In this document: one piece after another, positions 8,943 through 43,612 of the stretch
How the letters are laid out: the number at the start of each line of letters is the position of its first letter
Numbering within the stretch: position 1 is the stretch's first letter
Source: Alphaproteobacteria bacterium
GTDB lineage: Bacteria > Pseudomonadota > Alphaproteobacteria > Bin95
Reading direction: 5' to 3'
DNA: 64,000 nt
NCBI GenBank assembly: GCA_041687435.1
Contig: JAWLBX010000015.1
Location: 5,860-69,859 of the forward strand
Program-made: the position numbers and the translations under genes
The notes under the pieces: generated by a model
The model's input: only the letters and a program-made list of their open reading frames with translations
What the model was told of the DNA's origin: nothing
Database searches by the model: none

Positions 8943-9437
8943 GTGGCAAAGCATGATCCAGCCGAAGAATCCGATTTCATAGCGGAACACTGGTCGTTCC
9001 TGATCGTCGATGACAACCCGTCCGCGCTGGCGACGCTCCGCACCTTGATGATGGTTTTGGGCCTGGAGCCGCCGCTGGAGGCAGCGGGCGGGGCGGAGGC
9101 GCAGGATTTGGTGCGACGGCACGACCTGGACTGCATCATCACCGACCTGCGCATGGAGCCGATAAACGGCGTGGAATTCGTCCGCTGGCTGCGCCGCAGC
9201 AACGAAGCCGGCAACCCGACCGCCCGCATTCTGGCAATCTCTGCCTATCGGGATGCGGGGGAGATCGCTGCGGTGGCGAGCGAGGGCGCGGACGCGTTTC
9301 TCGCCAAGCCGCTGTCGCTGGCCAACCTGCGCGCCGCCCTCGATGTGCTGGGCCGACAGCCGGGCGGGTTCACGGAAATCGTTCAAACGCCAAGCGGAAC
9401 CGTGACCCTCGTGCCGAGGCCCATCACAAAAACCTAG
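8943..9437 (+). CDS. response regulator, single receiver (CheY-like) domain
   Basis: Receiver-domain acidic pocket and phospho-acceptor context ('LIVDDN', 'CIITDLRMEPINGVEF'). 164 aa with no output domain. Confidence 0.7.
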   Translation: MAKHDPAEESDFIAEHWSFLIVDDNPSALATLRTLMMVLGLEPPLEAAGGAEAQDLVRRHDLDCIITDLRMEPINGVEFVRWLRRSNEAGNPTARILAISAYRDAGEIAAVASEGADAFLAKPLSLANLRAALDVLGRQPGGFTEIVQTPSGTVTLVPRPITKT

Positions 9438-9518: not shown

Positions 9519-10277
9519 ATGTTCGAGGGAATCGATCTGCTGGTCGTCGCTGTTGTTGCGGTGGCCTTTTTTCTGGGCGGCGTGCTGAAGGGCGTCATCG
9601 GCCTGGGCCTGCCGCTGGTTGCGATTCCGATCATTGCGATCGTCATGCCTGTTGCCAAAGCCATCCCGCTGATGCTGGCCCCCGGGTACATCATGAACGT
9701 CATCCAGATGCGGCAGACTTGGCATGCCCGCATGCCGTTGCTGCGCTGGTGGCCGTTGTTTGTGGGCATGGGCGCCGGCGTCGCTCTCGGCGTGCAATTC
9801 GCCACCAATGCGCCGGAGCACCTGATGCGCGGCGTTCTGGGCGCAACCATCATTCTGTTTGTAGGTTTGAGTTTCGCCCGCATCCAAATTCCGAAGCGCG
9901 CGGTGGAAAATCCGGCGGCGGGGCTGACCATGGGCGGCATCACCGGCCTGTTCGGCGGCCTCACTGGCGTGTTCGGCCCAACGCTGGCCATGTACTTCCT
10001 GGCGCGGCGCCTGGAAAAGGATCGGTTCGTCTGGATCATGGCAGTGGTCATGCTGACCGGCGTCGTGTTTCTCGGCAGCGCGTTGACGGCGGCCGGTGGC
10101 CTCACCCAGGATCAGTTGCTGGGCACGGTCGCGGTTCTGGTGCCAAGCTGGTTGGGGCTTTCGGCCGGCGCCCTGGTGCGCAAGCGCGTCAGCCAAGACG
10201 TGTTCCGGAATGTGGCCCTGGCCGTTCTGGCCGTGATGGGCATCAGCCTGCTGGGCGCCTCCCTGGGCCTGTCCTGA
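9519..10277 (+). CDS. sulfite exporter TauE/SafE family (DUF81) membrane protein
   Basis: 252-aa membrane protein with two internal repeats of 4 TM each and Gly-rich motifs typical of TauE/SafE (DUF81). Confidence 0.65.
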   Translation: MFEGIDLLVVAVVAVAFFLGGVLKGVIGLGLPLVAIPIIAIVMPVAKAIPLMLAPGYIMNVIQMRQTWHARMPLLRWWPLFVGMGAGVALGVQFATNAPEHLMRGVLGATIILFVGLSFARIQIPKRAVENPAAGLTMGGITGLFGGLTGVFGPTLAMYFLARRLEKDRFVWIMAVVMLTGVVFLGSALTAAGGLTQDQLLGTVAVLVPSWLGLSAGALVRKRVSQDVFRNVALAVLAVMGISLLGASLGLS

Positions 10278-10406
10278 ATGGGTCAGGAACCCGCCGCCAT
10301 TGCTTCGCCGCGTATAAATGTGTAGGAACCCCGCATATGGGGAACGTCAAGGTCTGGTATCAGACGTTAGCCCTTTCTCATTCCGTTTTTGGAGGTTTTA
10401 CCTTTC

Positions 10407-11561
10407 ATGCGAATTCTCGCTTCCACGGTTGCCGCTGCCATCCTGGCTTCGGGCGCGGCCATTGCCGAAGAACCGAAACTGCCCCGCACGATGGTTTGGA
10501 GCGCTTACGACCTGGGTTCCTCCGGCTATGCCGAAGCGACCGGTATCGCCAACGCGCTGAAAGACAAGTACGGCACCCGCATTCGCATTGTGCCGGCTGG
10601 CACCTCGATCGGCCGGATGCTGCCGATGGTGACGGGCAAGGTCACCTACGGCTTCCTGGCGAACGAGGCGTTTTTTGCCGCTGAAGGCACCTATGATTTT
10701 GCGACCGAGCAGTGGGGCCCGCAGAACATCCGCATCGTCATGGGCCGCTTGGCCTCTAACGGCATTGCCACGGCCGGCGATATCGGTGTCAACAGCATTG
10801 CCGACCTCAAAGGCAAGCGGCTTGGCTTCGTCAAGGGCAACCCGTCCGTTAATGTCAAAAACGACGCCTATCTGGCCTTCGGCGGCCTGACCCGCGACGA
10901 CGTCGAGATGGTCTGGTTCGGCTCCTACAATGCCATGAAGACCGCCGTGCTCGCCAACCAGCTCGACGCCTTCGGCAGTGTCACCACATCGGCCAACATG
11001 CGTGAGATTGAGGCGAGCCCGCGCGGCATCACCTGGCCACCCTTCCCGCCGGAGGACAAGGAAGGCTGGGAACGGATGAGCAAGGTCGTCAGCTTCCTCT
11101 CCCCCTACCACGAGACTCGTGGTGGCGGCATTTCCGAGGAAAACCCGGTGGACCTGGTCGGCTACCGCTATCCGATGATCACGGTGTACGAGAACGCAGC
11201 ATCCGCGGACGAAGTCTATAACCTGGTCAAGGCGATCGACCTGTCCTACGAAGACTTCAAGAACACCACGTCGAGCTCGTTCAACTGGAAGCTGGAAGTC
11301 GCAGCGCGCCCGCCTTACGACGCGCCCGCACATGAAGGCACCGTCCGCTACCTGAAGGAAAAAGACCTGTGGCGTGACGAAGATCAGGCTTGGCAGGAAG
11401 CCCGCCTCGACCGCCTGAACAAGGTGCTGGAAGCCTGGGACGAGGCGCAGGCCGAGTTCACCGACTGGCGGATTGCTGAACAGGAAAAAGGCAACAAGGT
11501 GGACCCCAAGGAAGCCTGGCCGGAATACTGGGAGAAAGCCCGCATGGAAAAGCTGAACTAG
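10407..11561 (+). CDS. TAXI-family TRAP transporter solute-binding protein (paralog 1 of 4)
   Basis: Signal peptide (MRILASTVAAAILASGAAIA) and TAXI-family hallmarks ('MVWSAYDLGSSGYAEATGIA', 'RIVPAGTSIGR', 'GNPSVNVKNDAYLAFGGL'). GGAGG RBS upstream. Confidence 0.85.
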   Translation: MRILASTVAAAILASGAAIAEEPKLPRTMVWSAYDLGSSGYAEATGIANALKDKYGTRIRIVPAGTSIGRMLPMVTGKVTYGFLANEAFFAAEGTYDFATEQWGPQNIRIVMGRLASNGIATAGDIGVNSIADLKGKRLGFVKGNPSVNVKNDAYLAFGGLTRDDVEMVWFGSYNAMKTAVLANQLDAFGSVTTSANMREIEASPRGITWPPFPPEDKEGWERMSKVVSFLSPYHETRGGGISEENPVDLVGYRYPMITVYENAASADEVYNLVKAIDLSYEDFKNTTSSSFNWKLEVAARPPYDAPAHEGTVRYLKEKDLWRDEDQAWQEARLDRLNKVLEAWDEAQAEFTDWRIAEQEKGNKVDPKEAWPEYWEKARMEKLN

Positions 11562-11590
11562 GCTGATTCCATCGCGAATTGCGATCCCAA

Positions 11591-11620
11591 GCCGCCGGCA
11601 GTACTGCCGGCGGCTTTTTT
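11591..11620 (+). terminator. rho-independent terminator after TAXI paralog 1
   Basis: GC hairpin gccgccggcagtactgccggcggc followed by TTTTTT. Confidence 0.6.
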
Positions 11621-11739
11621 CATAACAGTGTCAGTAACCTCATTTAATTTGACAAAACCGGCGGATGATCGTCCCATCTCCCCCAGCCAAAGCAGGGATC
11701 AACCTGCCTGGAGCGGAGACAGAGGAAGGAAAACGCCTG

Positions 11740-12894
11740 ATGTTACGAACAACCGCTACTGCAATCATCGCGGCATGCCTCAGCACGGCAGCATTCGCCG
11801 ACGATCCCAAATTACCCAAGTCGATGGTGTGGAGCGCCTACGACCTGGGCTCCTCCGGCTATGCCGAGGCGACCGGCATCGCCAACGCGCTGCGGAAAAA
11901 CCACGGCACTCGCATCCGCATTGTACCCGCCGGCACCTCCATCGGGCGTTTGCTGCCGATGGTGACAGGCAAGGTGACTTATGGGTTCCTTGCCAACGAA
12001 GTGTTCTTTGCGACCGAAGGCACCTTTGATTTCGCGACACAGCAATGGGGCCCGCAAAATCTCCGGATCGTTTCAGGCCGTGTGGCATCCGTTGGGTTTT
12101 CGGTTGCAGGCGACGTCGGCGTCAAAGAAGTCAAGGATCTGAAAGGCAAGCGCATTGGCTATGTCCGGGGCAACCCCTCGGTCAATGTGAAGAACGATGC
12201 CTATCTGGCCTTCGGCGGGCTGACCCGAGGCGACATCGAACCTGTCTGGTTCGGTTCCTACAGCGCCATGAAAACCGCGCTGCTCGCCAACCAGATCGAT
12301 GCCTTCGGCAGCGTGCCCACCGCAGCCAACGTTCGCGAGATCGAAGCCAGTCCGCGCGGGCTGGTCTGGCCGCAATTCCCACCGGACGACAAGGAGGCAT
12401 GGGAAAACGTCACCAAAGTCGTCAGCTTTGCAGCACCCTACCGCGAAACCATGGGTGCCGGCATCTCTGAGGAAAACCCGCATTGGCTGGTCGGTTACCG
12501 CTACCCCATGATCTCGGTCTATCAGGACGCCGCGTCTGCGGACGAGGTCTATAACCTGATCAAAGCGATCGACCTGTCCTATGAGGACTTCAAGAACACC
12601 ACGTCGAGTTCGTCCAACTGGGCGCTGGAGAAGGCGGGGCCGCCGCCCTATGACGCGCCGACCCATGAAGGCACCATCCGCTATCTGAAGGAAAAAGGCC
12701 TGTGGACCGACGAGCATCAGGCCTGGCAGGAAAACCGCCTGGACCGCCTCAACAAGGTGCTCGCCGCCTGGGACGAGGCTCAGGCCGAGTTCACCGACTG
12801 GCGGATTGCCGAGCAGGAAAAAGGCAACAAGATCGATGCTGACGAAGCCTGGCCGGAATACTGGGAAAAAGCCCGCATGGAAAAGCTGAACTAA
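11740..12894 (+). CDS. TAXI-family TRAP transporter solute-binding protein (paralog 2 of 4)
   Basis: Very close paralog of the preceding gene; long stretches are identical, including the C-terminal 'AQAEFTDWRIAEQEKGNK' and 'EAWPEYWEKARMEKLN'. Signal peptide present. AGGAAGGA RBS upstream. Confidence 0.85.
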   Translation: MLRTTATAIIAACLSTAAFADDPKLPKSMVWSAYDLGSSGYAEATGIANALRKNHGTRIRIVPAGTSIGRLLPMVTGKVTYGFLANEVFFATEGTFDFATQQWGPQNLRIVSGRVASVGFSVAGDVGVKEVKDLKGKRIGYVRGNPSVNVKNDAYLAFGGLTRGDIEPVWFGSYSAMKTALLANQIDAFGSVPTAANVREIEASPRGLVWPQFPPDDKEAWENVTKVVSFAAPYRETMGAGISEENPHWLVGYRYPMISVYQDAASADEVYNLIKAIDLSYEDFKNTTSSSSNWALEKAGPPPYDAPTHEGTIRYLKEKGLWTDEHQAWQENRLDRLNKVLAAWDEAQAEFTDWRIAEQEKGNKIDADEAWPEYWEKARMEKLN

Positions 12895-12920
12895 GCCAGA
12901 CCGGCAAAACGCCCCCCAAA

Positions 12921-12950
12921 GCCGCCGGCGAGATCGCCGGCGGCTTTTTG
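12921..12950 (+). terminator. rho-independent terminator after TAXI paralog 2
   Basis: Hairpin gccgccggcgagatcgccggcggc followed by TTTTT. Confidence 0.6.
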
Positions 12951-13068
12951 TGTTATCACGAGTATCTATCGTACATTTGTGTTTGACAAAATTTTTCCAG
13001 GGGCGTTGCTTTTTCGTCCCCCAAAGCCGGATCAACCGGTGGGATGAAACAAACGGGAAGGAAAACGC

Positions 13069-14223
13069 TTGATGATACGCACAATCGCAACAGCAGTTAT
13101 GGTCGCCGGGCTTGGCTCCGCAGCCCTGGCCGCGGAGCCTGCCATACCGAAAACGATGGTCTGGACCGCCTATGACCTGGGCTCGACCGGCTATGCCGAA
13201 GCCACCGGCATCAGCAATGCCTTCAAAAAGAATTACGGCACGCGCGTCCGAATCATCCCGGCAGGCACATCTATCGGCCGGATTTTGCCGCTGGTGACTG
13301 GCAAGGCCACTTACGGCTATCTGGCCAATGAGGCCTATTTCGCCGCCGAAGGCACCTATGACTTCGCCACCCAGCAGTGGGGGCCGCAGGATATCCGCAT
13401 CATCGCCGGGCGTGTCGCCTCGGTCGGGATGGCGGTTGCGGGCGATATCGGCGTCAAAACCATTGCCGACCTCAAGGGCAAGCGTATCGGCTTCGTCAAG
13501 GGCAACCCGTCCGTCAACGTCAAGAACGAGGCTTATTTGGCCTTTGGCGGCCTGACCCTCGACGATATCCAGCCTGTCTGGTTCGGCTCCTACAGCGCCC
13601 TAAAGACAGCCGTACTCGCCACTCAGCTCGATGCCTATGGCAGCGCCACCGGCTCCGCCAATAGGCGGGAAATTGAGGCGAGCCCGCGCGGGCTGGTCTG
13701 GCCGGAATTCCGGCCGGAGAATACGGAGGGCTGGAAGGCGATGCAGGATATCCTCAGCTTCACCGCCCCTTATAAGGAAACCGTTGGCGCCGCATTGTCG
13801 GAAGAAAACCCGTCATGGCTTGTGGGCTTCCGCTACCCGATGGTGACGGTCTATCCACGATCCGTTGGTGCTGACGAGGCCTACGCCTTCGCCAAGGCCA
13901 TGCACGAAAGCTATGATGACTACAAAAATACCAACGCCCTCTCCCCGAATTGGGAAATGAGCAAGGCTGGCCCGCCGCCCTACGACGCACCGGCCCATGA
14001 AGGCAGCATCCGCTACCTGAAGGAGCAAGGGTTCTGGACCGCGGAACACCAGGATTGGCAGGACAAGCGCCTCGACCGCCTGAATGCGGTGCTGGAAGCG
14101 TGGGACAACGCGCAGGCGGAATTCCATGATTGGCGCGAGGCCGAGAAGGCCAAGGGCAACACGATCGACGCCGAGGCGGCCTGGGCTGAACATTGGGCCA
14201 AATACCGCGCCAGGCACCTGTGA
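13069..14223 (+). CDS. TAXI-family TRAP transporter solute-binding protein (paralog 3 of 4)
   Basis: Same family motifs (MVWTAYDLGSTGYAEATGIS, RIIPAGTSIGR, GNPSVNVKNEAYLAFGGL) and a signal peptide. More diverged from copies 1 and 2. Confidence 0.85.
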   Translation: MMIRTIATAVMVAGLGSAALAAEPAIPKTMVWTAYDLGSTGYAEATGISNAFKKNYGTRVRIIPAGTSIGRILPLVTGKATYGYLANEAYFAAEGTYDFATQQWGPQDIRIIAGRVASVGMAVAGDIGVKTIADLKGKRIGFVKGNPSVNVKNEAYLAFGGLTLDDIQPVWFGSYSALKTAVLATQLDAYGSATGSANRREIEASPRGLVWPEFRPENTEGWKAMQDILSFTAPYKETVGAALSEENPSWLVGFRYPMVTVYPRSVGADEAYAFAKAMHESYDDYKNTNALSPNWEMSKAGPPPYDAPAHEGSIRYLKEQGFWTAEHQDWQDKRLDRLNAVLEAWDNAQAEFHDWREAEKAKGNTIDAEAAWAEHWAKYRARHL

Positions 14224-14393
14224 TCCCCGGCACGGACCCAACCCGATGTGAGAAACCACCGGTCCTTTAAGGGGCCGGTGGTGCATCTAATGGTATGCAA
14301 ATTTGAAATTGACAGACTGCCCGCAAACGGTTCGGATAGAGCCGCTTGCCGGTCGGTTTGATGGCAACAACAGACAGAATGGAGAAAACGTCT

Positions 14394-15542
14394 ATGATTC
14401 GAACCCTTTTGACGCTGGCCATGGCCGGCGCAACCTCGGCGGCGCTCGCGGCAGAGCCGCAGCTGCCGAAAACTATGGTCTGGACCGCTTACGACTTAGG
14501 TTCGTCCGGTTATGCCGAAGCCACCGGCATGGCCAATGCTTTCAAAAAACGGTTCGGAACACGCGTCCGCATCATTCCTGCCGGCACCTCTATCGGCCGC
14601 ATGCTGCCATTGGTGACGGGCAAGGCAAGCTATGGCTTCCTGGCCAACGAAGCGTATTTCGCAGCCGAAGGCACCTATGATTTCGCTGACGAGCAATGGG
14701 GGCCGCAGGATATCCGCATCGTTCTCGGCAAGCCGACCTCCAACGCCATTGCGGTCGCAGCCGACACCGGTGTCAAAACAGTCTATGATTTGAAGGGCTT
14801 GCGGCTTGGCTATGTGAAAGGCAACCCTTCCGTCAATGTCAAGCACGATGCCTATCTGGCATTCGCCGGGCTGACGCGCGACGATATCGAAGTGATCTGG
14901 TTTGGTTCTTACAGCGCACTGAAAACCGCAGTGCTGGCCAACCAGATCGACGGCTATTCAAGCGTGACCACGTCGGCCAACATGCGTGAGATTGAGGCGA
15001 GCCCGCGCGGCCTGTGGTATGCGCAGGTACCGCCGGAGGACAAGGAAGGCTGGAAGAAGCTGACGGACGTCGTCGACTTTGTGAAGCCGATGGTTGAAAC
15101 GCAGGGTGCTGCGCTCAGCAAGGAAAAGCCGGCAAACCTGACGCAGATGCGCTATCCGATGGTCACCGTCTATCCGAAGGATGTGGGTGCCGACGAAGCG
15201 TACAATTTTGTGATGGCTGCCGATATCGCGTTCGATGACTACAAGGATGCAACGGCGACTGGCGAGTTCTGGGCTGTCGATCAAGCAGGCCCGCCACCTT
15301 ACGACGCGCCGGCTCACGAAGGCACCATCCGCTACCTGAAGGAAAAAGGCATCTGGACGGACGAGCATCAAGCCTGGCAGGACAACCGCCTGGCACGGTT
15401 GAACAAATACCTCGACCAATGGGGCGAGGCGCAGGCCGAATTTCACGAATGGCGTGAGGCCGAAGGGGCGAAAGGCAACAAGATCGACCCGAAAGAGGCT
15501 TGGCCGGGATATTGGGAGAAATACCGGATGGGCCAGAAGTAA
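14394..15542 (+). CDS. TAXI-family TRAP transporter solute-binding protein (paralog 4 of 4)
   Basis: Same family motifs and a signal peptide. Start at the internal ATG with a GGAGAAAA RBS. Confidence 0.85.
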   Translation: MIRTLLTLAMAGATSAALAAEPQLPKTMVWTAYDLGSSGYAEATGMANAFKKRFGTRVRIIPAGTSIGRMLPLVTGKASYGFLANEAYFAAEGTYDFADEQWGPQDIRIVLGKPTSNAIAVAADTGVKTVYDLKGLRLGYVKGNPSVNVKHDAYLAFAGLTRDDIEVIWFGSYSALKTAVLANQIDGYSSVTTSANMREIEASPRGLWYAQVPPEDKEGWKKLTDVVDFVKPMVETQGAALSKEKPANLTQMRYPMVTVYPKDVGADEAYNFVMAADIAFDDYKDATATGEFWAVDQAGPPPYDAPAHEGTIRYLKEKGIWTDEHQAWQDNRLARLNKYLDQWGEAQAEFHEWREAEGAKGNKIDPKEAWPGYWEKYRMGQK

Positions 15543-15559
15543 ACCATCCGGTGCCACTG

Positions 15560-15600
15560 GCGGGCCGCAAGCATCACTGCTTGCGGCCCGTTTTCGTTTC
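15560..15600. terminator. bidirectional rho-independent terminator
   Basis: Hairpin gcgggccgcaagc-atcact-gcttgcggcccg followed by TTTTCGTTTC. It sits between the convergent TAXI paralog 4 and a small minus-strand ORF. Confidence 0.6.
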
Positions 15601-15611
15601 TGCCGGCGACC

Positions 15612-15872
15612 TCAGTCGATCAGCAGATGCCTGACGATGGCTGCGTCCCGGCGTTGACAGGCGAGGATCGCCTGCTCCATCCGGTCGTTTGCATTCGTTT
15701 CCGGATGCAGCATCCAGTTAGCCAGCCAGTTGATGGCGCGGCGCACCATGGCTGCGTCCTTCTGCTGGGAGGTGAGGATCGCACGCTCCAGCTTGTCGTC
15801 GATCGGAGCTGGGCCGCTATGCTGCGACGCACCATTACCGAAGAAATTGGACGGGTAAGAGATAACACCCAC
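15612..15872 (-). CDS. hypothetical small protein with an internal tandem repeat
   Basis: 86-aa ORF containing a duplicated ~25-aa unit (LERAILTSQQKDAAMVRRAI / MEQAILACQRRDAAIVRHLL), mirrored by a ~55-bp DNA repeat at period ~103 bp. Whether it is coding is uncertain. Confidence 0.3.
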   Translation of the reverse strand: MGVISYPSNFFGNGASQHSGPAPIDDKLERAILTSQQKDAAMVRRAINWLANWMLHPETNANDRMEQAILACQRRDAAIVRHLLID

Positions 15873-16181
15873 GGTTCATACTCCGCGTAAACCTAAGCGA
15901 CCTCGCCGTTCGAGATCGCCTGTCTGATATCGTCTGCGACGGGGTATTCCACCAGACGTTGTTTTGCAACGCAGCAATGCAAGGCACGCATGGCCTGTTC
16001 CCCCGCCTCGCATCCGGCGCATTCATTCTGCCATTCTGCGCGGCGTATCGCGGCCAGTTGCCAGACACCCAACAAATCTGATGCGATCCACAGCGAGGCT
16101 ATGGCATTGCTGTTGCCAGGGCGACCGCAGATCGCCAAATCTGTTTGCATAGGCCGCCCTTCGCGGCCAGAGGATGCTGTT

Positions 16182-18209
16182 ATGCCCGCTTTCTTGCTGT
16201 CCGCTCCGGCCAAGGCTCGGCTCGCCGACGCCCTGGCCGCATGTGCCAACGCTGTTGCCTTGCCCGATGCATTGACTTTGCTCGATGGCTTGAATGGCGC
16301 GCCCGCCAGCGGTCTGGCTGCCGATGCAGACCTGTGGACACGCCTCTTCGCGCCCGTCCCTTCGCCGGAATTGATCGACGCACTGGCCGCCGCGAAAGCC
16401 GCCATGGCCGAACCGCGCCCCCCTGCCCTGCCCCTTGTCAGGCGTTTGCCGGCATTGCGGGAGGAGTTGGCACGGCTTGGGCTCGATGGCTTCATCATCC
16501 CCCATGGCGACGAGCATCAGAGCGAATTCATCCCGGCAGCCAGCGCAAGGCTCGCATGGCTGACAGGGTTCACGGGTTCAGCCGGCACTGCTGTGGTCCT
16601 GCGGGATAAAGCGGCGATTTTCGTGGATGGTCGATACACCCTGCAGGTGCGCGACCAAGTCAATACGGATCTGCTCGAGACTCTGCACGTGACCGACAAC
16701 CCGCCGGCCGGCTGGATCGCAGCAAACCTGCCAGCCGATGGAACGCTAGGGCTCGATCCTTGGCTGCATGGGGCCGATGCGGTGGAGCGTTACGAGGAAG
16801 CCGCGACGAAAGCCGGCGGACGGCTCGAATTGGTCGATAGCAACCCTGTCGATACGATCTGGACGGACCGGCCGGCAAAACCACTGGCGCCGGTAATCCC
16901 ACACCCGGACCGTCATGCCGGCGAGACCAGCGATTCGAAACGGCAGCGTCTCGCCGAAAGGCTGGCGGAAGATGGCATAGCCGCAGCAGTATTGAGCCAA
17001 CCGGATTCGATTGCCTGGCTGTTGAATGTGCGCGGCGGCGATGTCGCCCACACGCCCCTGGCACTCAGCTTTGCCCTGCTGCATAGCGATGGTCGGGTTG
17101 ACTGGTTCTGCGACTGGCGCAAGATTCTGCCGGAAACGCGCTCCCATGTTGGCAACTGCGTGCACATCGAACCGCCGGAGGTGCTGGGCCGAGCCCTGGA
17201 CCAGCTTGGAAAAACGAACGCCAATGTGCAGGTGGACCGACAGGCAACGCCGGCCTGGGTGCAGCGACGGCTGACAGCGGCCGGGGCTGTTCTAAAAAAT
17301 GGCACCGACCCCTGCGTCGCGCCGCGCGCCGCCAAGAACGCGGTGGAATTGGATGGCGCGCGCCAGGCCCATCGGCGCGACGCGGTCGCAATGGCCCGCT
17401 TTCTTGCCTGGGTCGATGCCAACGGCCCCAATGGAACGGTTGGCGAGGTTCAGGCAGCGGATCAATTGCTGGCCTTCCGCCAGCAGGTCGAGGGTTTCCG
17501 CGACCAAAGCTTCCCCACCATTTCCGGTTATGGCCCGAACGGCGCAATCGTCCATTACCGGGCAACGGCCGCAACCGAACGCCGCCTGGAGCCGGACTCG
17601 CTCTACCTGGTCGACTCCGGTGGCCAGTATAACGATGGCACAACCGACATCACCCGCACGGTTTGCATCGGCGAGCCAACACCCGTGATGCGCCGCGCCT
17701 TCACACGCGTGCTGCAAGGCCATATCGGCCTCGCAACGGCCCGTTTCCCCGCAGGTACTATCGGCACACAACTGGATGTGCTGGCACGGGCGCCATTATG
17801 GGCAGAAGGGTGTGATTTTGACCACGGCACCGGCCATGGCGTCGGCTCGTACCTGGGCGTGCATGAAGGGCCGCAGCGGATTGCCAAAACCGGAACGACG
17901 GCGCTGGTGTCCGGCATGATCGTTTCAAACGAGCCCGGCTATTACCGGGCCGGCGCCTTCGGGATTCGCACTGAAAACCTTCTGGTGGTGCGGGAGGCCG
18001 AGGGGGCGGGCCGGGACGGCCGCAAGTTTCTGGAATTCGAGACCATTACGCTGGTGCCGATCGACCGCCGCCTAATCGACAAGACCCTGCTCACCCCGGT
18101 AGAGCGGGCCTGGCTGAACGCTTATCACGCCCGGGTTCTGACCGAAATCGGGCCGGCGCTCGACGCAGAAACCCGGGCCTGGCTGGCAGAGGCAACGGCG
18201 CCGCTATAA
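16182..18209 (+). CDS. Xaa-Pro aminopeptidase (aminopeptidase P, M24B family)
   Basis: C-terminal M24 pita-bread metal-ligand motifs (VDSGGQYNDGTTDITRT, HGTGHGVGSYLGVHE, SNEPGYY, GIRTEN) and an N-terminal creatinase-like domain. The start is uncertain; ATG 16404 would give a more typical ~600-aa protein. Confidence 0.8.
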   Translation: MPAFLLSAPAKARLADALAACANAVALPDALTLLDGLNGAPASGLAADADLWTRLFAPVPSPELIDALAAAKAAMAEPRPPALPLVRRLPALREELARLGLDGFIIPHGDEHQSEFIPAASARLAWLTGFTGSAGTAVVLRDKAAIFVDGRYTLQVRDQVNTDLLETLHVTDNPPAGWIAANLPADGTLGLDPWLHGADAVERYEEAATKAGGRLELVDSNPVDTIWTDRPAKPLAPVIPHPDRHAGETSDSKRQRLAERLAEDGIAAAVLSQPDSIAWLLNVRGGDVAHTPLALSFALLHSDGRVDWFCDWRKILPETRSHVGNCVHIEPPEVLGRALDQLGKTNANVQVDRQATPAWVQRRLTAAGAVLKNGTDPCVAPRAAKNAVELDGARQAHRRDAVAMARFLAWVDANGPNGTVGEVQAADQLLAFRQQVEGFRDQSFPTISGYGPNGAIVHYRATAATERRLEPDSLYLVDSGGQYNDGTTDITRTVCIGEPTPVMRRAFTRVLQGHIGLATARFPAGTIGTQLDVLARAPLWAEGCDFDHGTGHGVGSYLGVHEGPQRIAKTGTTALVSGMIVSNEPGYYRAGAFGIRTENLLVVREAEGAGRDGRKFLEFETITLVPIDRRLIDKTLLTPVERAWLNAYHARVLTEIGPALDAETRAWLAEATAPL

Positions 18210-20699: not shown

Positions 20700-20776
20700 C
20701 GGGGTGTAGCGCAGTCTGGTAGCGCGCTAGTTTTGGGAACTAGAGGCCCCCGGTTCGAATCCGGGCTCCCCGACCA
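20700..20776 (+). tRNA. tRNA-Pro (anticodon TGG)
   Basis: 77-nt cloverleaf folded by hand. Acceptor stem cggggtg/ctccccg (one mismatch), D arm gcgc-agtctggta-gcgc, anticodon stem ctagt/actag with loop tttggga (anticodon TGG), T arm cccgg-ttcgaat-ccggg, 3' CCA encoded. Confidence 0.9.
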
Positions 20777-21789: not shown

Positions 21790-22674
21790 CTAGGCCGTCA
21801 CCTGTTCCGCGGTCAAGCCGTCGCCGGCCAGCGTGGTGCGCCGCATGTCGCGCGGTTCTTCCGACGGGAACGGACGAGCCCGGTGCATGGTGCGCCGGTT
21901 GTCCCAGATGACCAAGTCGTTCAGCCGCCATTGGTGAGCATAGACGAACTCGCGCTGGGTCGCATGCTCCGTCAGGTCGCGCAGCAGCAGCAGCGCCTCC
22001 GGCGTCGGCCAGCCCAGAATCTCACCGGCATGCGAGGACAGGAACAGCGACTTGCGACCTGTCGCCGGATGGCTGCGCACCAGTGACTGCCGCACCGGCT
22101 TCAATCTCGCCATTTCCTCTGGCGTGAAATCGGTAAAGCCAATCTGGCGGCGGGAATACATCTGCGAATGCTCACAAATCAGATCATCAATCTGCGCCTT
22201 GGTCTCATCGGCGAGCGCGTCATAGGCGGCGCGCATGTCAGCAAACTGCGTCTCCCCACCCCTGGACGGAATCGAGCGGGCGTGCAGCAGCGAGTATTTC
22301 GCCGGCACCGGCTTGAAGGAACTGTCCGAATGCCAAAGCCGGTTGCCAATGCCGAACAGCCGCCGCCGGTCTTCGCGGGCGAACGGCCTGTTGTCCTTGT
22401 CCAGGTTGGAAACATCGGCAAAGGTTTTGGCGATCCGCAACTCGTTATCGCTGCGCAGATTGGTGGTCACCGGCGCTTCGATCGGACCGAGGCTGAGGGT
22501 GAAGGCCATCTGCGTCTCGTCGTCAAGCGGTACCTCGCGGAAGACGAGGACTGCATGTTCATTCATGGCGGCGTGAATCTCGTCCGCCTGCTCCGGCGTG
22601 ATCGGCTGCGTGATGTCGATGCCGCTGGCTTCAGCAGCGAAACACGGGCCGATCTGGCGAGTGGTCAAGGGCAT
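21790..22674 (-). CDS. TauD/TfdA-family Fe(II)/2-oxoglutarate-dependent dioxygenase
   Basis: 294 aa from the internal ATG (MPLTTRQIGPCFAAEASGIDI...). The 2-His-1-carboxylate context 'WHSDSSF' and the C-terminal 'DNRRTMHRA' motif are present. The ORF-finder's upstream 241 aa are a GC-frame artefact. Confidence 0.8.
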   Translation of the reverse strand: MPLTTRQIGPCFAAEASGIDITQPITPEQADEIHAAMNEHAVLVFREVPLDDETQMAFTLSLGPIEAPVTTNLRSDNELRIAKTFADVSNLDKDNRPFAREDRRRLFGIGNRLWHSDSSFKPVPAKYSLLHARSIPSRGGETQFADMRAAYDALADETKAQIDDLICEHSQMYSRRQIGFTDFTPEEMARLKPVRQSLVRSHPATGRKSLFLSSHAGEILGWPTPEALLLLRDLTEHATQREFVYAHQWRLNDLVIWDNRRTMHRARPFPSEEPRDMRRTTLAGDGLTAEQVTA

Positions 22675-22842
22675 GGGCGCATCCTTTCCGGCCATTTCAG
22701 GGCTCTTGCCGTCCATGCTAGGCGGTCTCGCCGCGCGCGGGTAGCCCATTCGCACGCGCTTTACCGAAACAGCAGCCTTCCGGCATGCACGCTGCGGGGA
22801 TAGAGTTCCGCTCATCTCACCAAAGCAACAGAGGACACGCAA

Positions 22843-23619
22843 ATGGGTCAGGTTTCGGGAAAAGTGGCGCTGGTCACGGGCGGCGCTTCGGGTATCGGCA
22901 AGGCCACGGCGCTGACGCTGGGGCGCGAGGGCGCTGCGGTGATGGTCACGGACCTGAACCAGGCCGGTGCGGAGGCGGTTGCCGCGGAAATCGTAGGCGC
23001 AGGTGGCAAGGCCCAGGCGATGCCGCAGGATACGACGGACGAGGACCGGTGGCAGGCTGTGATCGCCGCAACCGAGGCCGCATTCGGTAAGCTGGACGTG
23101 CTGGTGAACAACGCGGGCATCGCCATCGCCGGCCCGATCGAGACCTACAGCCTGGCCGACTGGCGGAAGCAGCAAGCGGTCAACGTCGATGGCGTGTTTC
23201 TGGGTGTGAAGCATGCCTTCCCGGCCATGCGGCGCGCCGGCGGCGGCTCCATCATCAACCTGTCCTCGATTGCCGGCCTGCGCGGCAATCGCTCCGGCCT
23301 CGGCGCCTACAGCGCCACCAAGGGCGCCGTGCGGCTGTTCACGAAGACGGCGGCGCTGGAGGGCGCCAAGGACAAAATCCGGGTGAACTCCGTCCATCCC
23401 GGCATCATCGAAACGCCGATCTGGGATGCGATCCTGCCGGGCGGCGAGGCCGGGCGCAATGCGGGCGACCTCAACGTACGGGCACGGGCGTCAGTGCCGA
23501 CCGGCGTGCTGGGACAGCCGCAGGACATCGCGAACGGTATCCTGTTCCTGGCCAGCGACCAGTCAAGCTATATGAGCGGCTCCGAACTGGTGATCGACGC
23601 CGGCGTGACCGCCGGCTAG
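22843..23619 (+). CDS. SDR family oxidoreductase (short-chain dehydrogenase/reductase)
   Basis: Cofactor-binding motif TGGASGIGKA, NNAG, and the catalytic S…Y-x3-K (YSATKGAV). Confidence 0.85.
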   Translation: MGQVSGKVALVTGGASGIGKATALTLGREGAAVMVTDLNQAGAEAVAAEIVGAGGKAQAMPQDTTDEDRWQAVIAATEAAFGKLDVLVNNAGIAIAGPIETYSLADWRKQQAVNVDGVFLGVKHAFPAMRRAGGGSIINLSSIAGLRGNRSGLGAYSATKGAVRLFTKTAALEGAKDKIRVNSVHPGIIETPIWDAILPGGEAGRNAGDLNVRARASVPTGVLGQPQDIANGILFLASDQSSYMSGSELVIDAGVTAG

Positions 23620-25714: not shown

Positions 25715-26915
25715 CTGCCAGCACTCCCTCGGCGATCAAGCGATTGATCGTATCGGCATCATAGCCGGCCCGCTCTGCCATGACCGTGCGGGTGTCGGCG
25801 CCGATGGCCCGGCCCGGCCAGTGGATCTCTCCAGGCGAGGCGGAAAGACGCGGCGCCGGGGCGGACATCGCCAGCAGGCCCAGGGCCGGATGGGGCACAC
25901 GGGCCAGCGTTTCGCGCGCTGCGTAGTGCGGGTCCGCGAACACGTCTGCCATGGTGAAAATGCGGGTGGCCGGCACGTCGTTTTCGATCAGCGCCGCTTC
26001 CAACGGCGCCAAATCTTGCGTCCCGACCCAATCCTGAATCATGCGTTCCAGCAATTCCTGGTTCTGGCCCCGGGCGCGGGCGGTGGCGAACCGCTCGTCA
26101 GTCGTCCAGTCTTCGCGCCCCATCACCTGGCAGAGACGGCGGAACACCGGGTTGGCGGAGGCCGCGATCTGAATATCCCGCCCGTCGCGCGTGCGGAACA
26201 GGCCATTGGGGGAAACCCCCGGCAGGCGCGAGCCGGCACGGTTGGCGACATGGCCCAGCTGGTCATAGGCCGGGATGTGCGGCTCCATGAAGCTGAAGGC
26301 ACTCTCCATCAGGTTGGCATCCACCACCTGCCCTTCCCCCGTGCGGTCACGGTGGATCAGGGCCATAGCGATGCCGAACGCGGCATAGAGGCCGGTGATA
26401 TAATCCGTCAGAGACACGGCCACGCGCGCCGGCGGACGGTCCGGGTCGCCGGTGATGTGGCGCAGGCCGCTCACCGCCTCGCCAATGATGCCGAAGCCCG
26501 GGCGGGGGGAGTACGGGCCGGACTGGCCGAAGCCGGAAATGCGCGCCATGATCAGGTCGGGCTTCACCGCTTTCAGGTCCTCATAGCCGAGGCCCCATTT
26601 CTCCAGGCCGCCGGGACGGAAATTCTCGATCACCACGTCACTGTTGCGCGCCAAATCCCGGATCGCCTGCTGGCCTGCCGGCATGCGCATGTCGATGGCG
26701 ACGAGTTGCTTGTTCCGCAGGATGCTGGCGGCATAGAGCGATACATCCTCGCCATTCTCCGCCTGCTTGTGCTTGCCCATGGAGCGGACCGGATCGCCCG
26801 CCGGTGGCTCAACCTTGACCACTTCGGCGCCGAAGTCGGCCAGCAGCCGGCCGCAGAATGGCCCGGCAATGGTCGATCCAAGTTCGAGCACCCGGGCGTG
26901 GACGAGCGGTCCCAT
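25704..26915 (-). CDS. CoA transferase, family III (CaiB/BaiF)
   Basis: 403 aa from the internal ATG (MGPLVHARVLELGSTIAGPFCG...). Family III signatures around 'RVLELGS.IAGP' and 'GFGQSGPY'. Confidence 0.85.
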   Translation of the reverse strand: MGPLVHARVLELGSTIAGPFCGRLLADFGAEVVKVEPPAGDPVRSMGKHKQAENGEDVSLYAASILRNKQLVAIDMRMPAGQQAIRDLARNSDVVIENFRPGGLEKWGLGYEDLKAVKPDLIMARISGFGQSGPYSPRPGFGIIGEAVSGLRHITGDPDRPPARVAVSLTDYITGLYAAFGIAMALIHRDRTGEGQVVDANLMESAFSFMEPHIPAYDQLGHVANRAGSRLPGVSPNGLFRTRDGRDIQIAASANPVFRRLCQVMGREDWTTDERFATARARGQNQELLERMIQDWVGTQDLAPLEAALIENDVPATRIFTMADVFADPHYAARETLARVPHPALGLLAMSAPAPRLSASPGEIHWPGRAIGADTRTVMAERAGYDADTINRLIAEGVLADAA

Positions 26916-27906
26916 GGCATGGCGATCCTTGCGGAAAGGAAAACGGATGCCCGCACTATAGCAAGCTTCCAACCGGGGGAAACCGGTTCAACCCGCCCAG
27001 CGCTCCGCATCGTTTTTCTCACCCGCAACCGGATTGAGCGGCACGCCTCGCAGTCATCCATCTCAATAAAACACTATGAAATTTTCAGTAATTATAATCA
27101 TTTTCAATATATTCGCAGAGGCTACACTGCCTATCGGCCGAACACCTCAGAATGTATGCATAAGGGAATTTTCTCACCATACATTAATCCCTCACGATCC
27201 GGCCCTTCCGTCACGTCAACTTCCCAGCATAACTGGCATCGGGATAGGCTGGCGACCCAGCGGAGCATAATTTGGATATGTGCAGGAGAGAAAATACGCA
27301 ATATCGAACGCGGAAAAATATGACATCTATTATTTTCCCACCTTCCATTAAATTATCGAAACCAGTGCCTAAATATTGATTGCACGCATAAATTGCTGCA
27401 CCGGTATTGAATTATTCAATCACGCTTAATAAGACTGAAAACCTGAAAAATCTGGATAATATCATGGAATGTTTTATCACAAACATATCGACATAATGAA
27501 TTACTACGACATAGTATCAGGATTTTTTCAGCGCCATTTCCGCATTATCACCTCCATATACTTAACAAGTAAATCCGCCTTTCCCAAAACAATATGCAAT
27601 ATTCAGCGATACATTTATACATATGTATGAATTTGCACCGTAAATTCTCCATGATCTTTTGGATTATAACCCGGATTGATATCAGTCGCGACTTTACATT
27701 CTTTGTGATTTGTCCACATTTATTTCTGCATACGATGGACAATAGGACACCCTGAGGGTTACCCGAAGATGGTTCTTGGTTTGTATGGTAACAAGCTGCT
27801 TCTATTACAGACCGTTTGGAACGACGCCCGCCAGGGTTGTAATGCAGTCCATCTATGGATGTACGATAAATATTCCAAGTTCTCAACCGAGTGAAAGGAC
27901 AAATCT

Positions 27907-28689
27907 ATGCTTGAGCGCACCCCACAGGCTTTTATCAACGCCTGCTTCTCTTTGATGTGGAACTCCGGTTATTCAGCTACTATCGATACTGATTTGCGTG
28001 GCTGGGTGGATTTTCTAACCAACGCGTATCCGGATTCGCCCGTCAATGCAGCCTTCAACCCCGAATTCCATCGCCTGGAACCCGACAATTCGTTCTGGCT
28101 ATCCATTCGCCGGCGCAGCGATGGCAAGGTGATCGCTTGTATTTGCGACCGGTTGATCGAGTCAGACGATTTCCTGGAAGACCAGCGGCTCATGAAAATC
28201 TGGTATGGCGATCCGGCGACAAGCGGGGCGGCCCCCATGCAGATCGCGCAGCCGCGCTCCGCCTATCCTGATGTGCGCGGTAAGATCGGCCATCACGGCG
28301 GTCTCTGGGTCGACCGTAGCGAGCGACATAATGGGTTGGCATGGCTGCTGTGCCGCATCATCCGCGCCATGTCTCTGCAGCGCTGGCCGGATGTCGACTG
28401 GCACTGCGGCACCTCACTCGAGGGCGTGGCGGTACGGGATCTGCCAACAAATACCTACGGCTATACCCGTGTCGACCTCTTGCTCGACGGTTGGTTCCAA
28501 CCCAGTCAGCAGCACCATAAAGTGTTCATGACCTCGATCAGCGCCAATGAAATGAGCCTGCAAATTGCAGAGGATCTGTCACTGATCGAAATGAACACCG
28601 ACAAGCAAATGCGTGACGTTGTTTTTGCCGCTAGAGAGCGGAAGAGCAACACGCCGGTACTCCCGGCTGTGCAAGCCCTTGCCGGTTAA
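27907..28689 (+). CDS. hypothetical protein
   Basis: 260-aa ORF immediately downstream of an ~880-bp AT-rich non-coding stretch. Lower GC than its surroundings and no recognisable domain. Confidence 0.4.
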   Translation: MLERTPQAFINACFSLMWNSGYSATIDTDLRGWVDFLTNAYPDSPVNAAFNPEFHRLEPDNSFWLSIRRRSDGKVIACICDRLIESDDFLEDQRLMKIWYGDPATSGAAPMQIAQPRSAYPDVRGKIGHHGGLWVDRSERHNGLAWLLCRIIRAMSLQRWPDVDWHCGTSLEGVAVRDLPTNTYGYTRVDLLLDGWFQPSQQHHKVFMTSISANEMSLQIAEDLSLIEMNTDKQMRDVVFAARERKSNTPVLPAVQALAG

Positions 28690-29082
28690 TTGGGCACTCA
28701 CTCCTTGGAATAAAGGAAACTTATTCGCCTTCGCTATGACGAGATCACGCTCCAAGGCCCGCTGAAGGGCTTTGGAGCTGATGTCGGAAACGCGTATGCC
28801 GGAATAGCCACCCATGCCCCGCAGCGCGAACACGTCATAGCTAAAATTGCCGGGGTTTTCATCGTGCACATCGATGACATGGAACCAGCCCAGAACGCCC
28901 AGACGGGTCAATTCCATCAGCCCAACATCATCGATATCCGGCAAGATCCCGTGACGCCGGGGCAAGGAAAACCAGAAACGGACAAGCCGCGCCAACGGCG
29001 CGTCCTTGCCTTCATCCAGTTCGGTCAATGCGCACACACGCCGTTCTACGACATCGCCGCTTCCGGCTTCGCGTTCGATCAT
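28579..29082 (-). CDS. hypothetical protein (possible PAS-like sensory fold)
   Basis: 167-aa ORF whose 3' end overlaps the preceding convergent ORF by ~110 nt, so one of the two calls may be wrong. Weak resemblance to PAS-like folds only. Confidence 0.35.
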   Translation of the reverse strand: MIEREAGSGDVVERRVCALTELDEGKDAPLARLVRFWFSLPRRHGILPDIDDVGLMELTRLGVLGWFHVIDVHDENPGNFSYDVFALRGMGGYSGIRVSDISSKALQRALERDLVIAKANKFPLFQGVSAQLTGKGLHSREYRRVALPLSSGKNNVTHLLVGVHFDQ

Positions 29083-29109
29083 TTCGCACCTCGCGGCAAC
29101 AGCACGAAT

Positions 29110-29703: not shown

Positions 29704-29754
29704 ACTTTATTCAGACAACTCTAACGTCATGACCCGCGTGACGCAATATTTGCT

Positions 29755-40894: not shown

Positions 40895-41165
40895 TCTATG
40901 TTCTATCCTCTTTAGGATATCATTTTAGTAATTTTATCAAAATGTTAACTTAAAGTCTGCGTATTTTCATAAACTCAGGCAAAGATTTAGGGTTTACCCT
41001 TAACCGCTTTCGCTCTTGTTCCATTCTTATCCCATCATCTATTAAATAAAGCAAGCTCTCTCCATCTGCCACAGTGACGATTTCAGAAAATGCAGTTTCA
41101 GACTGTAATAATTCACCCGATATTTTATTTAATACATCACAGATATTATTAATTGATTCATCGAC

Positions 41166-41636: not shown

Positions 41637-41705
41637 GCTTGCTCCAGAAATTCGTCAAATAGGCCCAAGGCGACTTTTGTCGAAGCACCATATCAAGCGG
41701 ATGCT

Positions 41706-43552: not shown

Positions 43553-43612
43553 GCCGAAACGCTCCGCTTAACATCTGTCACAATCGACGCCGATCTTGTA
43601 GCATCCGGCGCG

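What the first reader, a model, noticed from the sequence alone, without database searches (positions are those of the whole stretch)
10389..15600. Array of four tandem TAXI-family solute-binding paralogs, each with its own promoter and terminator, and no TRAP permease
Seen in sequence: four consecutive ~385-aa signal-peptide proteins share the TAXI hallmarks (MVW(S/T)AYDLGS(S/T)GYAEATG, R(I/V)(V/I)PAGTSIGR, GNPSVNVK). Copies 1 and 2 are nearly identical over long stretches, including the C-terminal 'AQAEFTDWRIAEQEKGNK…EAWPEYWEKARMEKLN'. Copies 3 and 4 are more diverged. Each gene is preceded by its own TTGACA-type -35 element (~11649, ~12984, ~14309), and three of the four are followed by a stem-loop/T-tract terminator, so they are independent transcription units rather than one operon. 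Established knowledge: TAXI proteins are normally encoded next to a fused DctQM-type TRAP membrane component. None is present within 10 kb; the nearest membrane protein is the TauE/SafE gene upstream. Inference: this is an orphan, recently expanded receptor family. The copies may feed a distant permease with different ligands, or serve a non-transport role such as sensing.
Basis: partly seen in the sequence, partly recalled or inferred. Interest (0 to 1): 0.6.

Follow-up and report, generated by a model that had tools for sequence, protein, structure and literature searches.

The report
Four TAXI binding proteins beside TauE
Four old, separately transcribed copies of a periplasmic nutrient-binding protein sit with no usual TRAP membrane partner nearby, but always next to one small TauE-type membrane protein, which may be an unrecognised kind of transporter pairing.

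Summary
Four tandem genes (10407-15542, +) encode 382-385 aa TAXI-family solute-binding proteins with signal peptides. Each has a conserved promoter-like element, and three are followed by strong terminators. No DctQM/TRAP permease is encoded in any frame of the 64-kb window.

"Recently expanded" is wrong. The copies are 65-79% identical, with dS 0.9-1.7 and dN/dS 0.15-0.24. The c1-, c3- and c4-type copies have 79-86% identical counterparts in the same arrays in other alphaproteobacterial genomes.

In 48 of 79 genome loci, proteins of this same subfamily (TAXI core plus a C-terminal helical hairpin) lie next to a fused TRAP permease (TIGR02123). So these are ordinary TRAP-type receptors by descent.

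The new point is a strict two-way link to the upstream TauE/TSUP gene:
- 17 of 18 TAXI loci of this clade have it upstream.
- All 22 assessable metagenomic loci of this TauE subfamily are followed by 1-3+ TAXI genes.
- None of 37 more distant TauE loci has a TAXI gene.
- TauE and DctQM are never both beside the TAXI gene.

Best reading (0.45): receptors with different specificities that feed a fused TRAP permease encoded elsewhere. Rival (0.35): the TSUP protein is the membrane partner, which would be a new class like TAXI-GltS.

The parts
8943..9437 (+). Stand-alone receiver-domain protein (164 aa). It lies upstream of TauE in most, but not all, related modules.
   Evidence: PF00072 73.5 bits. 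An RR-TauE-TAXI order is seen in L001, L007, L011, L012, L016, L018, L019, L025, L030, L034, L037, L041 and in 12 metagenome loci. It is absent in L035, L040 and L102-L105.
9519..10277 (+). TauE/SafE (TSUP family) membrane protein, 252 aa, 6 hydrophobic segments by a simple hydropathy scan. It belongs to a small, discrete subfamily that is always followed by TAXI gene(s).
   Evidence: PF01925 85.6 bits. TM scan. The subfamily has 41 clusters at >=209 bits, and the next hit scores 108 bits. 22 of 22 assessable metagenome loci are followed by TAXI genes.
10300..10327 (+). Conserved promoter-like element TTGCTT-N14-GTGTAGGA between TauE and the first TAXI gene.
   Evidence: Conserved in 8 orthologous intergenic regions. 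Sequence read. No terminator is predicted between TauE and c1.
10407..11561 (+). TAXI copy 1 (384 aa): signal peptide, TAXI core to about aa 320, C-terminal helical hairpin aa 324-383.
   Evidence: TIGR02122 174 bits. AF2 model pLDDT 90.4. Best Foldseek matches are solved TAXI SBPs.
11589..11616 (+). Intrinsic terminator after c1 (12-bp stem, T-run).
11649..11654 (+). -35 TTGACA of the c2 promoter.
   Evidence: Sequence. Position is conserved across genomes.
11740..12894 (+). TAXI copy 2 (384 aa from ATG 11740), 79% identical to c1.
   Evidence: TIGR02122 158 bits. Identity matrix.
12918..12947 (+). Intrinsic terminator after c2 (13-bp stem, T-run).
12983..12988 (+). -35 TTGACA of the c3 promoter.
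13072..14223 (+). TAXI copy 3 (383 aa). Its ortholog in L007 is 79% identical.
   Evidence: TIGR02122 160 bits. Tree and identities.
14255..14282 (+). GC-rich hairpin after c3 with no T-tract.
   Evidence: Sequence. Downstream MFE is -31.4 kcal/mol. The terminator scan did not call it.
14309..14314 (+). -35 TTGACA of the c4 promoter.
14394..15542 (+). TAXI copy 4 (382 aa). It belongs to a separate old lineage, with orthologs 81-86% identical in L001, L007 and L011.
   Evidence: TIGR02122 159 bits. Trees.
15559..15592 (+). Intrinsic terminator after c4 (15-bp stem, T-run).

Best explanation
The four genes encode secreted periplasmic TAXI solute receptors. They diverged long ago and are kept under purifying selection. 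Each is transcribed from its own sigma-70-type promoter and insulated by a terminator or hairpin. That arrangement allows strong and independently set expression.

Each receptor would bind a related but different small solute by Venus-flytrap closure. It would then pass the solute to a secondary transporter. I take the translocator to be a TAXI-type fused DctQM (TIGR02123) permease encoded elsewhere in the genome and shared by several receptors. This is the same arrangement as the orphan Bug/TctC and orphan TRAP binding proteins. The conserved upstream TSUP (TauE) protein and receiver protein would then act in the same physiological process in a role that is still undefined.

Shown: family membership, fold, age of the copies, lack of a cis permease, conserved promoter and terminator elements, and the linkage to TauE.
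Inferred: ligand diversity, docking to a permease encoded in trans, and expression level.
For: Family and fold. TIGR02122 scores are about twice the cut-off. The AF2 model (pLDDT 90) best matches the solved TAXI SBPs 9ibp, 9ibo/8s4j and 1us4.

Same subfamily works with DctQM elsewhere. Proteins 55-71% identical to c1 lie directly beside a fused permease scoring 549-603 bits on TIGR02123 (cut-off 321) in 48 of 79 genome loci.

Little sequence change. 145 alignment columns are >=85% conserved in both the TauE-linked and the TRAP-linked proteins, and 144 carry the same residue. The stem branch of the TauE-linked clade is not long. Neither result suggests a change of docking partner.

Trans pairing occurs in this subfamily. 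Constrictibacter sp. MBR-5 has a TAXI pair without a permease (L010). On another contig it has a fused permease without a binding protein (P0132/L091). Sixteen genome loci have neither a permease nor TauE nearby.

A matching permease exists in related genomes. Two MAGs that carry the array also carry a TAXI + fused permease locus of the same subfamily (L017 with L081, L018 with L082).

The copies are functional and old. dN/dS is 0.10-0.24.

Copies differ near the binding site. They differ in segments that align with VcGluP binding-site residues, at aa 113-125 and 187-197.

Orphan TRAP and TTT binding proteins are documented (PMC12344293, PMC5812351).
Against: This model does not explain the linkage to TauE. 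A discrete TauE subfamily is always followed by these TAXI genes, and the reverse also holds. The linkage persists as TauE identity falls to 35-40% and across unrelated flanks. TauE and DctQM are never both next to the TAXI gene (0 of 79).

In the single-copy relatives, the RR-TauE-TAXI-MFS module is flanked by housekeeping genes with no catabolic enzymes. That looks like a self-contained transporter.

I could not show that the window's own genome, or the complete 5.16-Mb chromosome OZ244951.1, encodes any fused TRAP permease.
Confidence: 0.45

Rival explanations
1. The TSUP (TauE-family) protein encoded directly upstream is itself the membrane translocator for these receptors. This would be a TSUP-TAXI binding-protein-dependent secondary transporter with one membrane component and 1-4 interchangeable receptors. 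It would parallel the recently proposed TAXI-GltS class.
For: From the TAXI side, 17 of 18 loci of the clade with upstream DNA have TauE directly upstream on the same strand.

From the TauE side, all 22 metagenome loci with a full-length TauE match of >=36% identity and downstream DNA are followed by 1-3+ TAXI genes. None of 37 more distant TSUP loci has a TAXI gene, and 24 of those have >=1 kb of downstream DNA.

The pair persists while TauE diverges to 37-38% and the flanks change completely.

It is mutually exclusive with a cis DctQM permease: 48 TRAP-linked, 15 TauE-linked, 0 with both.

No terminator is predicted between TauE and c1.

The number of receptor genes varies while TauE stays single.

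Clade-specific conserved residues R355, A357, E358 and G362 lie at the tip of the C-terminal hairpin.

There is precedent for a TAXI protein using a non-TRAP partner (PMC12344293).

No paper in the held library links TAXI and TauE/TSUP.
Against: No TSUP protein is known to depend on a binding protein (my own knowledge; the literature searches found none).

No TauE-TAXI fusion protein occurs among the 43 listed hits (41 in the subfamily).

The genes are 80-260 nt apart with a conserved promoter-like element between them. They are not translationally coupled as gltS and BP0403 are.

The TAXI proteins are almost unchanged from their DctQM-linked sisters, with 144 of 145 conserved columns identical.

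DctQM loci of the matching type exist in at least two array-bearing MAGs.
Confidence: 0.35
2. The receptors are sensors rather than transport components. Ligand-bound TAXI would signal through a membrane protein to the adjacent receiver-domain protein, in chemosensing or regulation.
For: A stand-alone receiver protein lies upstream of TauE in the window and in most related modules.
Against: No histidine kinase, MCP or output domain is in the conserved module. The receiver gene is missing from several TauE-TAXI loci (L035, L040, L102-L105). Four highly similar receptors with strong individual promoters fit nutrient capture better.
Confidence: 0.07
3. The array is a recent lineage-specific amplification or an assembly duplication, with redundant copies.
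For: Tandem head-to-tail layout. c1 and c2 share similar 5' UTRs and terminators.
Against: DNA identity is only 70-79%. dS is 0.88-1.69. There is no conversion tract. The same three- or four-copy arrays, with c1-, c3- and c4-type counterparts, occur in at least 8 other genomes.
Confidence: 0.01

Closest known systems
Canonical TAXI-TRAP transporters (TAXI SBP + fused DctQM; e.g. VcGluP-VcGluQM of Vibrio cholerae, TtGluBP of Thermus thermophilus)
   Same: Same binding-protein family (TIGR02122/PF16868) and same two-lobe fold. Close relatives (55-71% identity) are encoded next to TIGR02123 permeases.
   Different: No DctQM gene in the 64-kb window. There are four receptors, each with its own promoter. 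A 60-aa C-terminal helical hairpin is absent from all solved TAXI structures, which are about 300 aa. Four of the five VcGluP binding-site residues that could be mapped are replaced: Q93 to Ala85, E125 to Ser117, Y200 to Ser191, M201 to Val192. Ser75 is kept.
TAXI-GltS system of Bordetella pertussis (BP0403/BP0402; PMC12344293)
   Same: A TAXI protein with no TRAP permease in cis, but with a conserved non-TRAP membrane transporter gene directly upstream on the same strand.
   Different: The neighbour is a 252-aa TSUP/TauE protein, not GltS. There is no translational coupling and no fusion proteins were found. The receptor has normal architecture plus a C-terminal hairpin. It is not the 503-aa dimeric lipoprotein with an N-terminal domain.
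Orphan binding proteins of secondary transporters (Bug/TctC proteins of Bordetella, AdpC of Rhodopseudomonas palustris; PMC5812351)
   Same: Several paralogous receptors without a membrane component nearby. They are presumed to share a permease encoded elsewhere.
   Different: A different family (TAXI, not TctC). The array is small and syntenic and is conserved across genomes, not a large dispersed expansion. It is strictly linked to one TSUP gene.
TSUP (TauE/SafE/TsaS, TC 2.A.102) permeases
   Same: The upstream gene meets PF01925.
   Different: To my knowledge, known TSUP members act without a binding protein. This subfamily is small and discrete and is found only next to TAXI genes.

Membership tests
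TAXI family TRAP solute-binding subunit (TIGR02122 / PF16868) | Sequence scores above the curated family cut-off | tested here: met
   158-174 bits against a cut-off of 84.35 for all four. PF16868 36.8-50.8 bits against a cut-off of 27.
TAXI family TRAP solute-binding subunit (TIGR02122 / PF16868) | Secreted: N-terminal signal peptide | tested here: met
   A hydrophobic N-terminus ending AIA/AFA/ALA before the conserved (E/D/A)-(E/D)-P-x-(L/I)-P segment, read directly from the translations. No dedicated predictor was run.
TAXI family TRAP solute-binding subunit (TIGR02122 / PF16868) | Two-lobe alpha/beta binding-protein fold matching solved TAXI structures | tested here: met
   AF2 pLDDT 90.4, pTM 0.86. 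The top 7 Foldseek PDB hits are TAXI SBPs, E 1e-17 to 3e-16, TM (target) 0.67-0.77.
TAXI family TRAP solute-binding subunit (TIGR02122 / PF16868) | Binds a small solute with high affinity | not testable with these tools
   Needs purified protein (DSF, ITC, native MS).
Complete TAXI-TRAP transporter locus | Fused DctQM permease (TIGR02123 / PF06808) encoded next to the binding-protein gene | tested here: not met
   No hit in any frame of the 64-kb window to an HMM of confirmed fused permeases. All multi-TM ORFs were identified as other families.
Complete TAXI-TRAP transporter locus | A DctQM permease present somewhere in the same genome | not testable with these tools
Related MAGs have one at another locus (L081, L082).
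TAXI-GltS class (PMC12344293) | gltS (ESS family) gene adjacent or translationally coupled, or fused | tested here: not met
   No GltS among the neighbours. The upstream membrane gene is PF01925 TauE.
Glutamate-specific TAXI proteins (VcGluP/TtGluBP type) | Binding-site residues Y45, S75, Q93, E125, Y200, M201 (VcGluP numbering) | tested here: not met
   Profile alignment to 8s4j/9ibo: S75 = Ser67 is kept; Q93 to Ala85, E125 to Ser117, Y200 to Ser191, M201 to Val192; Y45 lies outside the aligned part. Caveat: the alignment is at about 20% identity.
TSUP / TauE-SafE family (PF01925), for the upstream gene | Sequence above the Pfam gathering score, multi-TM protein of about 250 aa | tested here: met
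   85.6 bits against a cut-off of 32.6, covering 14-244 of 252 aa. 6 hydrophobic segments by a simple scan.
Binding-protein-dependent TSUP transporter (hypothetical new class) | Conserved two-way gene linkage of the membrane and receptor genes | tested here: met
   17 of 18 from the TAXI side. 22 of 22 from the TauE side, against 0 of 37 for out-group TSUPs.
Binding-protein-dependent TSUP transporter (hypothetical new class) | Physical or functional coupling (fusion proteins, translational coupling, docking, transport) | tested here: not met
   No fusions among the 43 listed hits (41 in the subfamily). The gap is 130 nt and contains a conserved promoter-like element. Docking and transport are not testable here.

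The most novel reading that the evidence does not exclude
The conserved TauE-subfamily protein is the translocator served by these TAXI receptors. [quoted passage not shown] It would be the second non-TRAP partner for TAXI proteins after GltS, and the first binding-protein-dependent member of the TSUP/LysE superfamily.
Probability: 0.35. Interest if true: 0.85.

Novelty: new variant of a known kind. Interest (0 to 1): 0.55.

Why it matters
TAXI proteins are the least understood branch of TRAP transport. Until 2025 they were thought to work only with fused DctQM permeases.

This locus shows a whole clade of TAXI receptors that has given up the permease in cis. The clade has been kept as a multi-receptor array for a long time, and it is tied to a dedicated TSUP membrane protein.

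If the TSUP protein is the partner, binding-protein dependence extends to a transporter superfamily not known to use it. It would also give the poorly characterised TSUP family an uptake mechanism that can be tested.

If the partner is a distant DctQM permease, this is a clean natural system for studying how several receptors share one TRAP permease. The role of the unusual C-terminal helical hairpin could also be studied.

Close relatives of the locus occur in marine (Tara) metagenomes, so the ligands may matter for carbon or sulfur turnover.

Tried and rejected
1. The 739-aa ORF just downstream (15990-18209) was checked as a candidate fused permease. It is an M24 aminopeptidase P.

2. Other large ORFs in the window (30606, 46122, 50470, 42053, 55601 and 57447) were checked for DctM. 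None matched.

3. I tried to reach the remaining ~20 kb of the 84,244-nt source contig, and its name, by exact protein look-up. Four attempts failed: 'not on record'.

4. I tried to decide whether the complete chromosome OZ244951.1 has a fused permease. The method was to look for its contig length among the top 120 hits to the L081 permease. None appeared. However, the same trick also fails to recover known TAXI copies of that genome, so it is unreliable and I do not use it.

5. Riboswitch or leader RNA in the 5' UTRs: nothing near gathering scores.

6. Gene conversion between c1 and c2: no tract above 89%.

7. Is the downstream MFS of the single-copy modules orthologous to any MFS in the window? 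No.

8. Sulfonate-catabolism reading of 'TauE': the TauD-like and Ldh_2 genes downstream are not conserved with the module. The name alone is not evidence.

9. A pseudo-complex AF2 model of TauE+TAXI was considered. It is not feasible under the tool's input rules, and a paired alignment could not be supplied.

Full report
OBSERVATION

The window carries four head-to-tail + strand genes: c1 10407-11561, c2 11740-12894, c3 13072-14223 and c4 14394-15542. Each encodes a 382-385 aa protein with a Sec-type signal peptide. Each scores 158-174 bits on TIGR02122 (TAXI family TRAP solute-binding subunit, cut-off 84) and passes PF16868. Protein identity is 79% for c1/c2 and 65-68% for the other pairs. 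DNA identity is 70-79%. No 90-nt window exceeds 89%, so this is neither an assembly artefact nor recent gene conversion.

Strong hairpin-plus-T-run terminators follow c1, c2 and c4. c3 is followed by a hairpin without a T-tract. Exact TTGACA hexamers lie 85-91 nt before the starts of c2, c3 and c4. The consensus scanner missed them because the -10 hexamers are weak. However, the same TTGACA at -82 to -105 is conserved in an alignment of 15 internal-copy intergenic regions from 8 genomes. The first copy instead has a different conserved element, TTGCTT-N14-GTGTAGGA (10300-10327), in the TauE-c1 spacer. The claim of four separate transcription units is therefore reasonably supported. Read-through from TauE into c1 is not excluded, because no terminator is predicted between them.

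NO TRAP PERMEASE IN CIS

The large ORF downstream is an M24 aminopeptidase P. All ORFs with 4 or more hydrophobic segments in the 64 kb are LivH/LivM, three MFS proteins, TauE, an ABC exporter and two Opp-type permeases. An HMM built from five fused permeases confirmed by Pfam or NCBIfam finds nothing in any reading frame at E<=10.

AGE OF THE ARRAY

The block nitroreductase-MFS_3-enoyl-CoA hydratase-receiver protein-TauE-TAXI x3-4-(86-aa ORF, minus strand)-M24 recurs in a complete 5.16-Mb alphaproteobacterial chromosome (L001/L013, 83% identity). It also recurs in MAG GCA_020638555.1 (L007), in a Tara-derived MAG (L011/L017) and in several others.

In trees, c4 groups with L007_4, L011_3 and L001_3 (81-86% identity). 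c3 groups with L007_3 and L011_2 (74-79%). c1 groups with L007_1 and L001_2 (83-84%). c2 belongs to the c1-type lineage, which has had lineage-specific duplications. The c4-type lineage sits apart from the c1-c3 lineage in the larger NJ tree. That placement is tentative, because it comes from neighbour-joining with midpoint rooting.

Between copies, dS is 0.88-1.69 and dN/dS is 0.15-0.24. Between orthologs, dN/dS is 0.10-0.17. The copies are old, all are functional, and they have been retained. 'Recently expanded' is refuted.

WHAT KIND OF TAXI PROTEIN

An AF2 model of c1 (pLDDT 90.4) has the two-lobe binding-protein fold followed by a confident helical hairpin (helices 324-360 and 367-383). 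Its best structural matches are the solved TAXI proteins 9ibp, 9ibo/8s4j (VcGluP), 1us4/8u79 (TtGluBP) and 4ddd. All of these are about 300 aa and none covers the hairpin.

The 66-aa hairpin alone gives 19 hits among 1.84 billion representative proteins. Wherever the hit is a full-length (~390-aa) protein, it lies at the C-terminus; most other hits are short fragments. It marks a subfamily.

Four of the five VcGluP binding-site residues that can be mapped through the profile alignment are replaced here: Q93 to Ala85, E125 to Ser117, Y200 to Ser191 and M201 to Val192. Ser75 is kept. The ligand is therefore probably not glutamate. The four copies differ in the segments that align with that site (aa 113-125 and 187-197). 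This is consistent with different specificities, but that is inference.

COMPARATIVE CONTEXT

A scan of one genome per species returned 79 loci with this subfamily, at 48-85% identity. All are Alphaproteobacteria, including Rhodospirillales, Hyphomicrobiaceae, Reyranella and Acetobacteraceae.
- In 48 loci the TAXI gene lies directly beside a 650-765 aa, 12-18 TM protein. Representatives score 549-603 bits on TIGR02123 (cut-off 321). By descent, then, this is an ordinary TAXI-TRAP receptor family.
- 15 loci have a TauE gene directly upstream and no permease.
- 16 loci have neither. Some of these are on truncated contigs.
- No locus has both.

The TauE-linked proteins (c1-c3 types plus single-copy loci such as L034, L035 and L030) form one clade nested among TRAP-linked clades.

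THE TauE LINK

From the TAXI side, 17 of 18 loci of the clade with upstream DNA have TauE upstream on the same strand.

From the TauE side, I scanned metagenome contigs with a TauE alignment. All 22 loci with a full-length match of >=36% identity and with downstream DNA are followed by 1-3+ TAXI genes. None of 37 more distant TSUP loci has a TAXI gene anywhere in the locus, and 24 of those have >=1 kb of downstream DNA.

The TauE subfamily is small and sharply bounded. It has 41 clusters at >=209 bits, and the next hit scores 108 bits.

The pair persists as TauE identity falls to 37-38% and receiver-protein identity to 40%. Meanwhile the flanks change completely. In the L034-type loci the RR-TauE-TAXI-MFS module sits among housekeeping genes: GCS2, RsmE-like, UbiA, methyltransferases, SDRs and ORFs I take to be glutamate synthase on size alone.

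I found no paper linking TAXI with TauE/TSUP. The TAXI-GltS report (PMC12344293) shows that TAXI proteins can be associated with a non-TRAP membrane protein.

WEIGHING THE MECHANISMS

For a permease encoded in trans:
- TauE-linked and TRAP-linked proteins share 144 of 145 strongly conserved columns. The only difference is Tyr304 against Ala.
- The stem branch of the TauE-linked clade is short.
- True orphans of this subfamily exist.
- Constrictibacter sp. MBR-5 has a TAXI pair without a permease (L010) and a fused permease without a binding protein on another contig (L091).
- Two MAGs with the array also have a TAXI + fused permease locus of the same subfamily (L017/L081, L018/L082).

For TSUP as the partner:
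- The strict two-way linkage.
- Its mutual exclusivity with a cis DctQM.
- The self-contained look of the module.
- The variable number of receptors per TSUP gene.
- A small clade-specific conserved patch at the hairpin tip (R355, A357, E358, G362).

Against TSUP as the partner:
- No fusion proteins.
- No translational coupling.
- No known binding-protein-dependent TSUP protein.

I put the trans-DctQM model at 0.45, the TSUP-partner model at 0.35, a sensing role at 0.07 and recent amplification or artefact at 0.01. Whatever the translocator is, a functional link between the TSUP gene and these receptors is very likely.

VERDICT

It is wrong about a recent expansion. The added value is the conserved TSUP-TAXI module. 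On present evidence this is a new variant of a known kind, with a realistic chance of being a new transporter class.

Noticed in passing
window 15612-15872 (-): An 86-aa ORF on the opposite strand between c4 and the M24 gene. It has no Pfam hit, but it is conserved at the same position in at least 6 related genomes (L001, L007, L011, L012, L014, L019).
   Followed up: partly
window 15990-18209 (+): The M24 aminopeptidase P ORF is 739 aa from its first ATG, but orthologs are called at 675-676 aa. The true start is probably about 190 nt downstream. The gene is conserved directly after the TAXI array in all array-bearing genomes.
   Followed up: partly
window 21790-23397 (-): A TauD-family dioxygenase ORF of 535 aa whose TauD domain covers only aa 246-522. 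The ortholog in L007 is 293 aa. The ORF is either over-extended or carries an N-terminal extension.
   Followed up: no
L091 5370-7950 (Constrictibacter sp. MBR-5): A fused TRAP permease with no binding-protein gene nearby, preceded by Alph_Pro_TM (PF09608) and Usp genes. It is the mirror image of the orphan TAXI pair on another contig of the same organism (L010).
   Followed up: partly
L059 4150-7719: An orphan TAXI gene of the same subfamily followed about 700 nt downstream by a BCCT (betaine/carnitine/choline) transporter gene. This is a single case and could be chance.
   Followed up: no
L111 3286-4338: The TAXI gene after TauE appears fragmented into three short HMM hits. It may be a pseudogene or a sequencing frameshift.
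   Followed up: no
window 26001-30000 and 40001-42000: G+C drops to 0.53-0.57 against about 0.62-0.66 elsewhere, with strongly negative GC skew at 28-30 kb. These may be horizontally acquired segments.
   Followed up: no
window 42053-45157 (+): A 1034-aa ORF in which only aa 550-1003 match XseA (exodeoxyribonuclease VII large subunit). The first half is probably an over-extended reading frame in high-GC DNA.
   Followed up: no
window 20700-20776 (+): tRNA-Pro (TGG), the only tRNA gene in the window. It lies just after the second MFS_3 gene.
   Followed up: no
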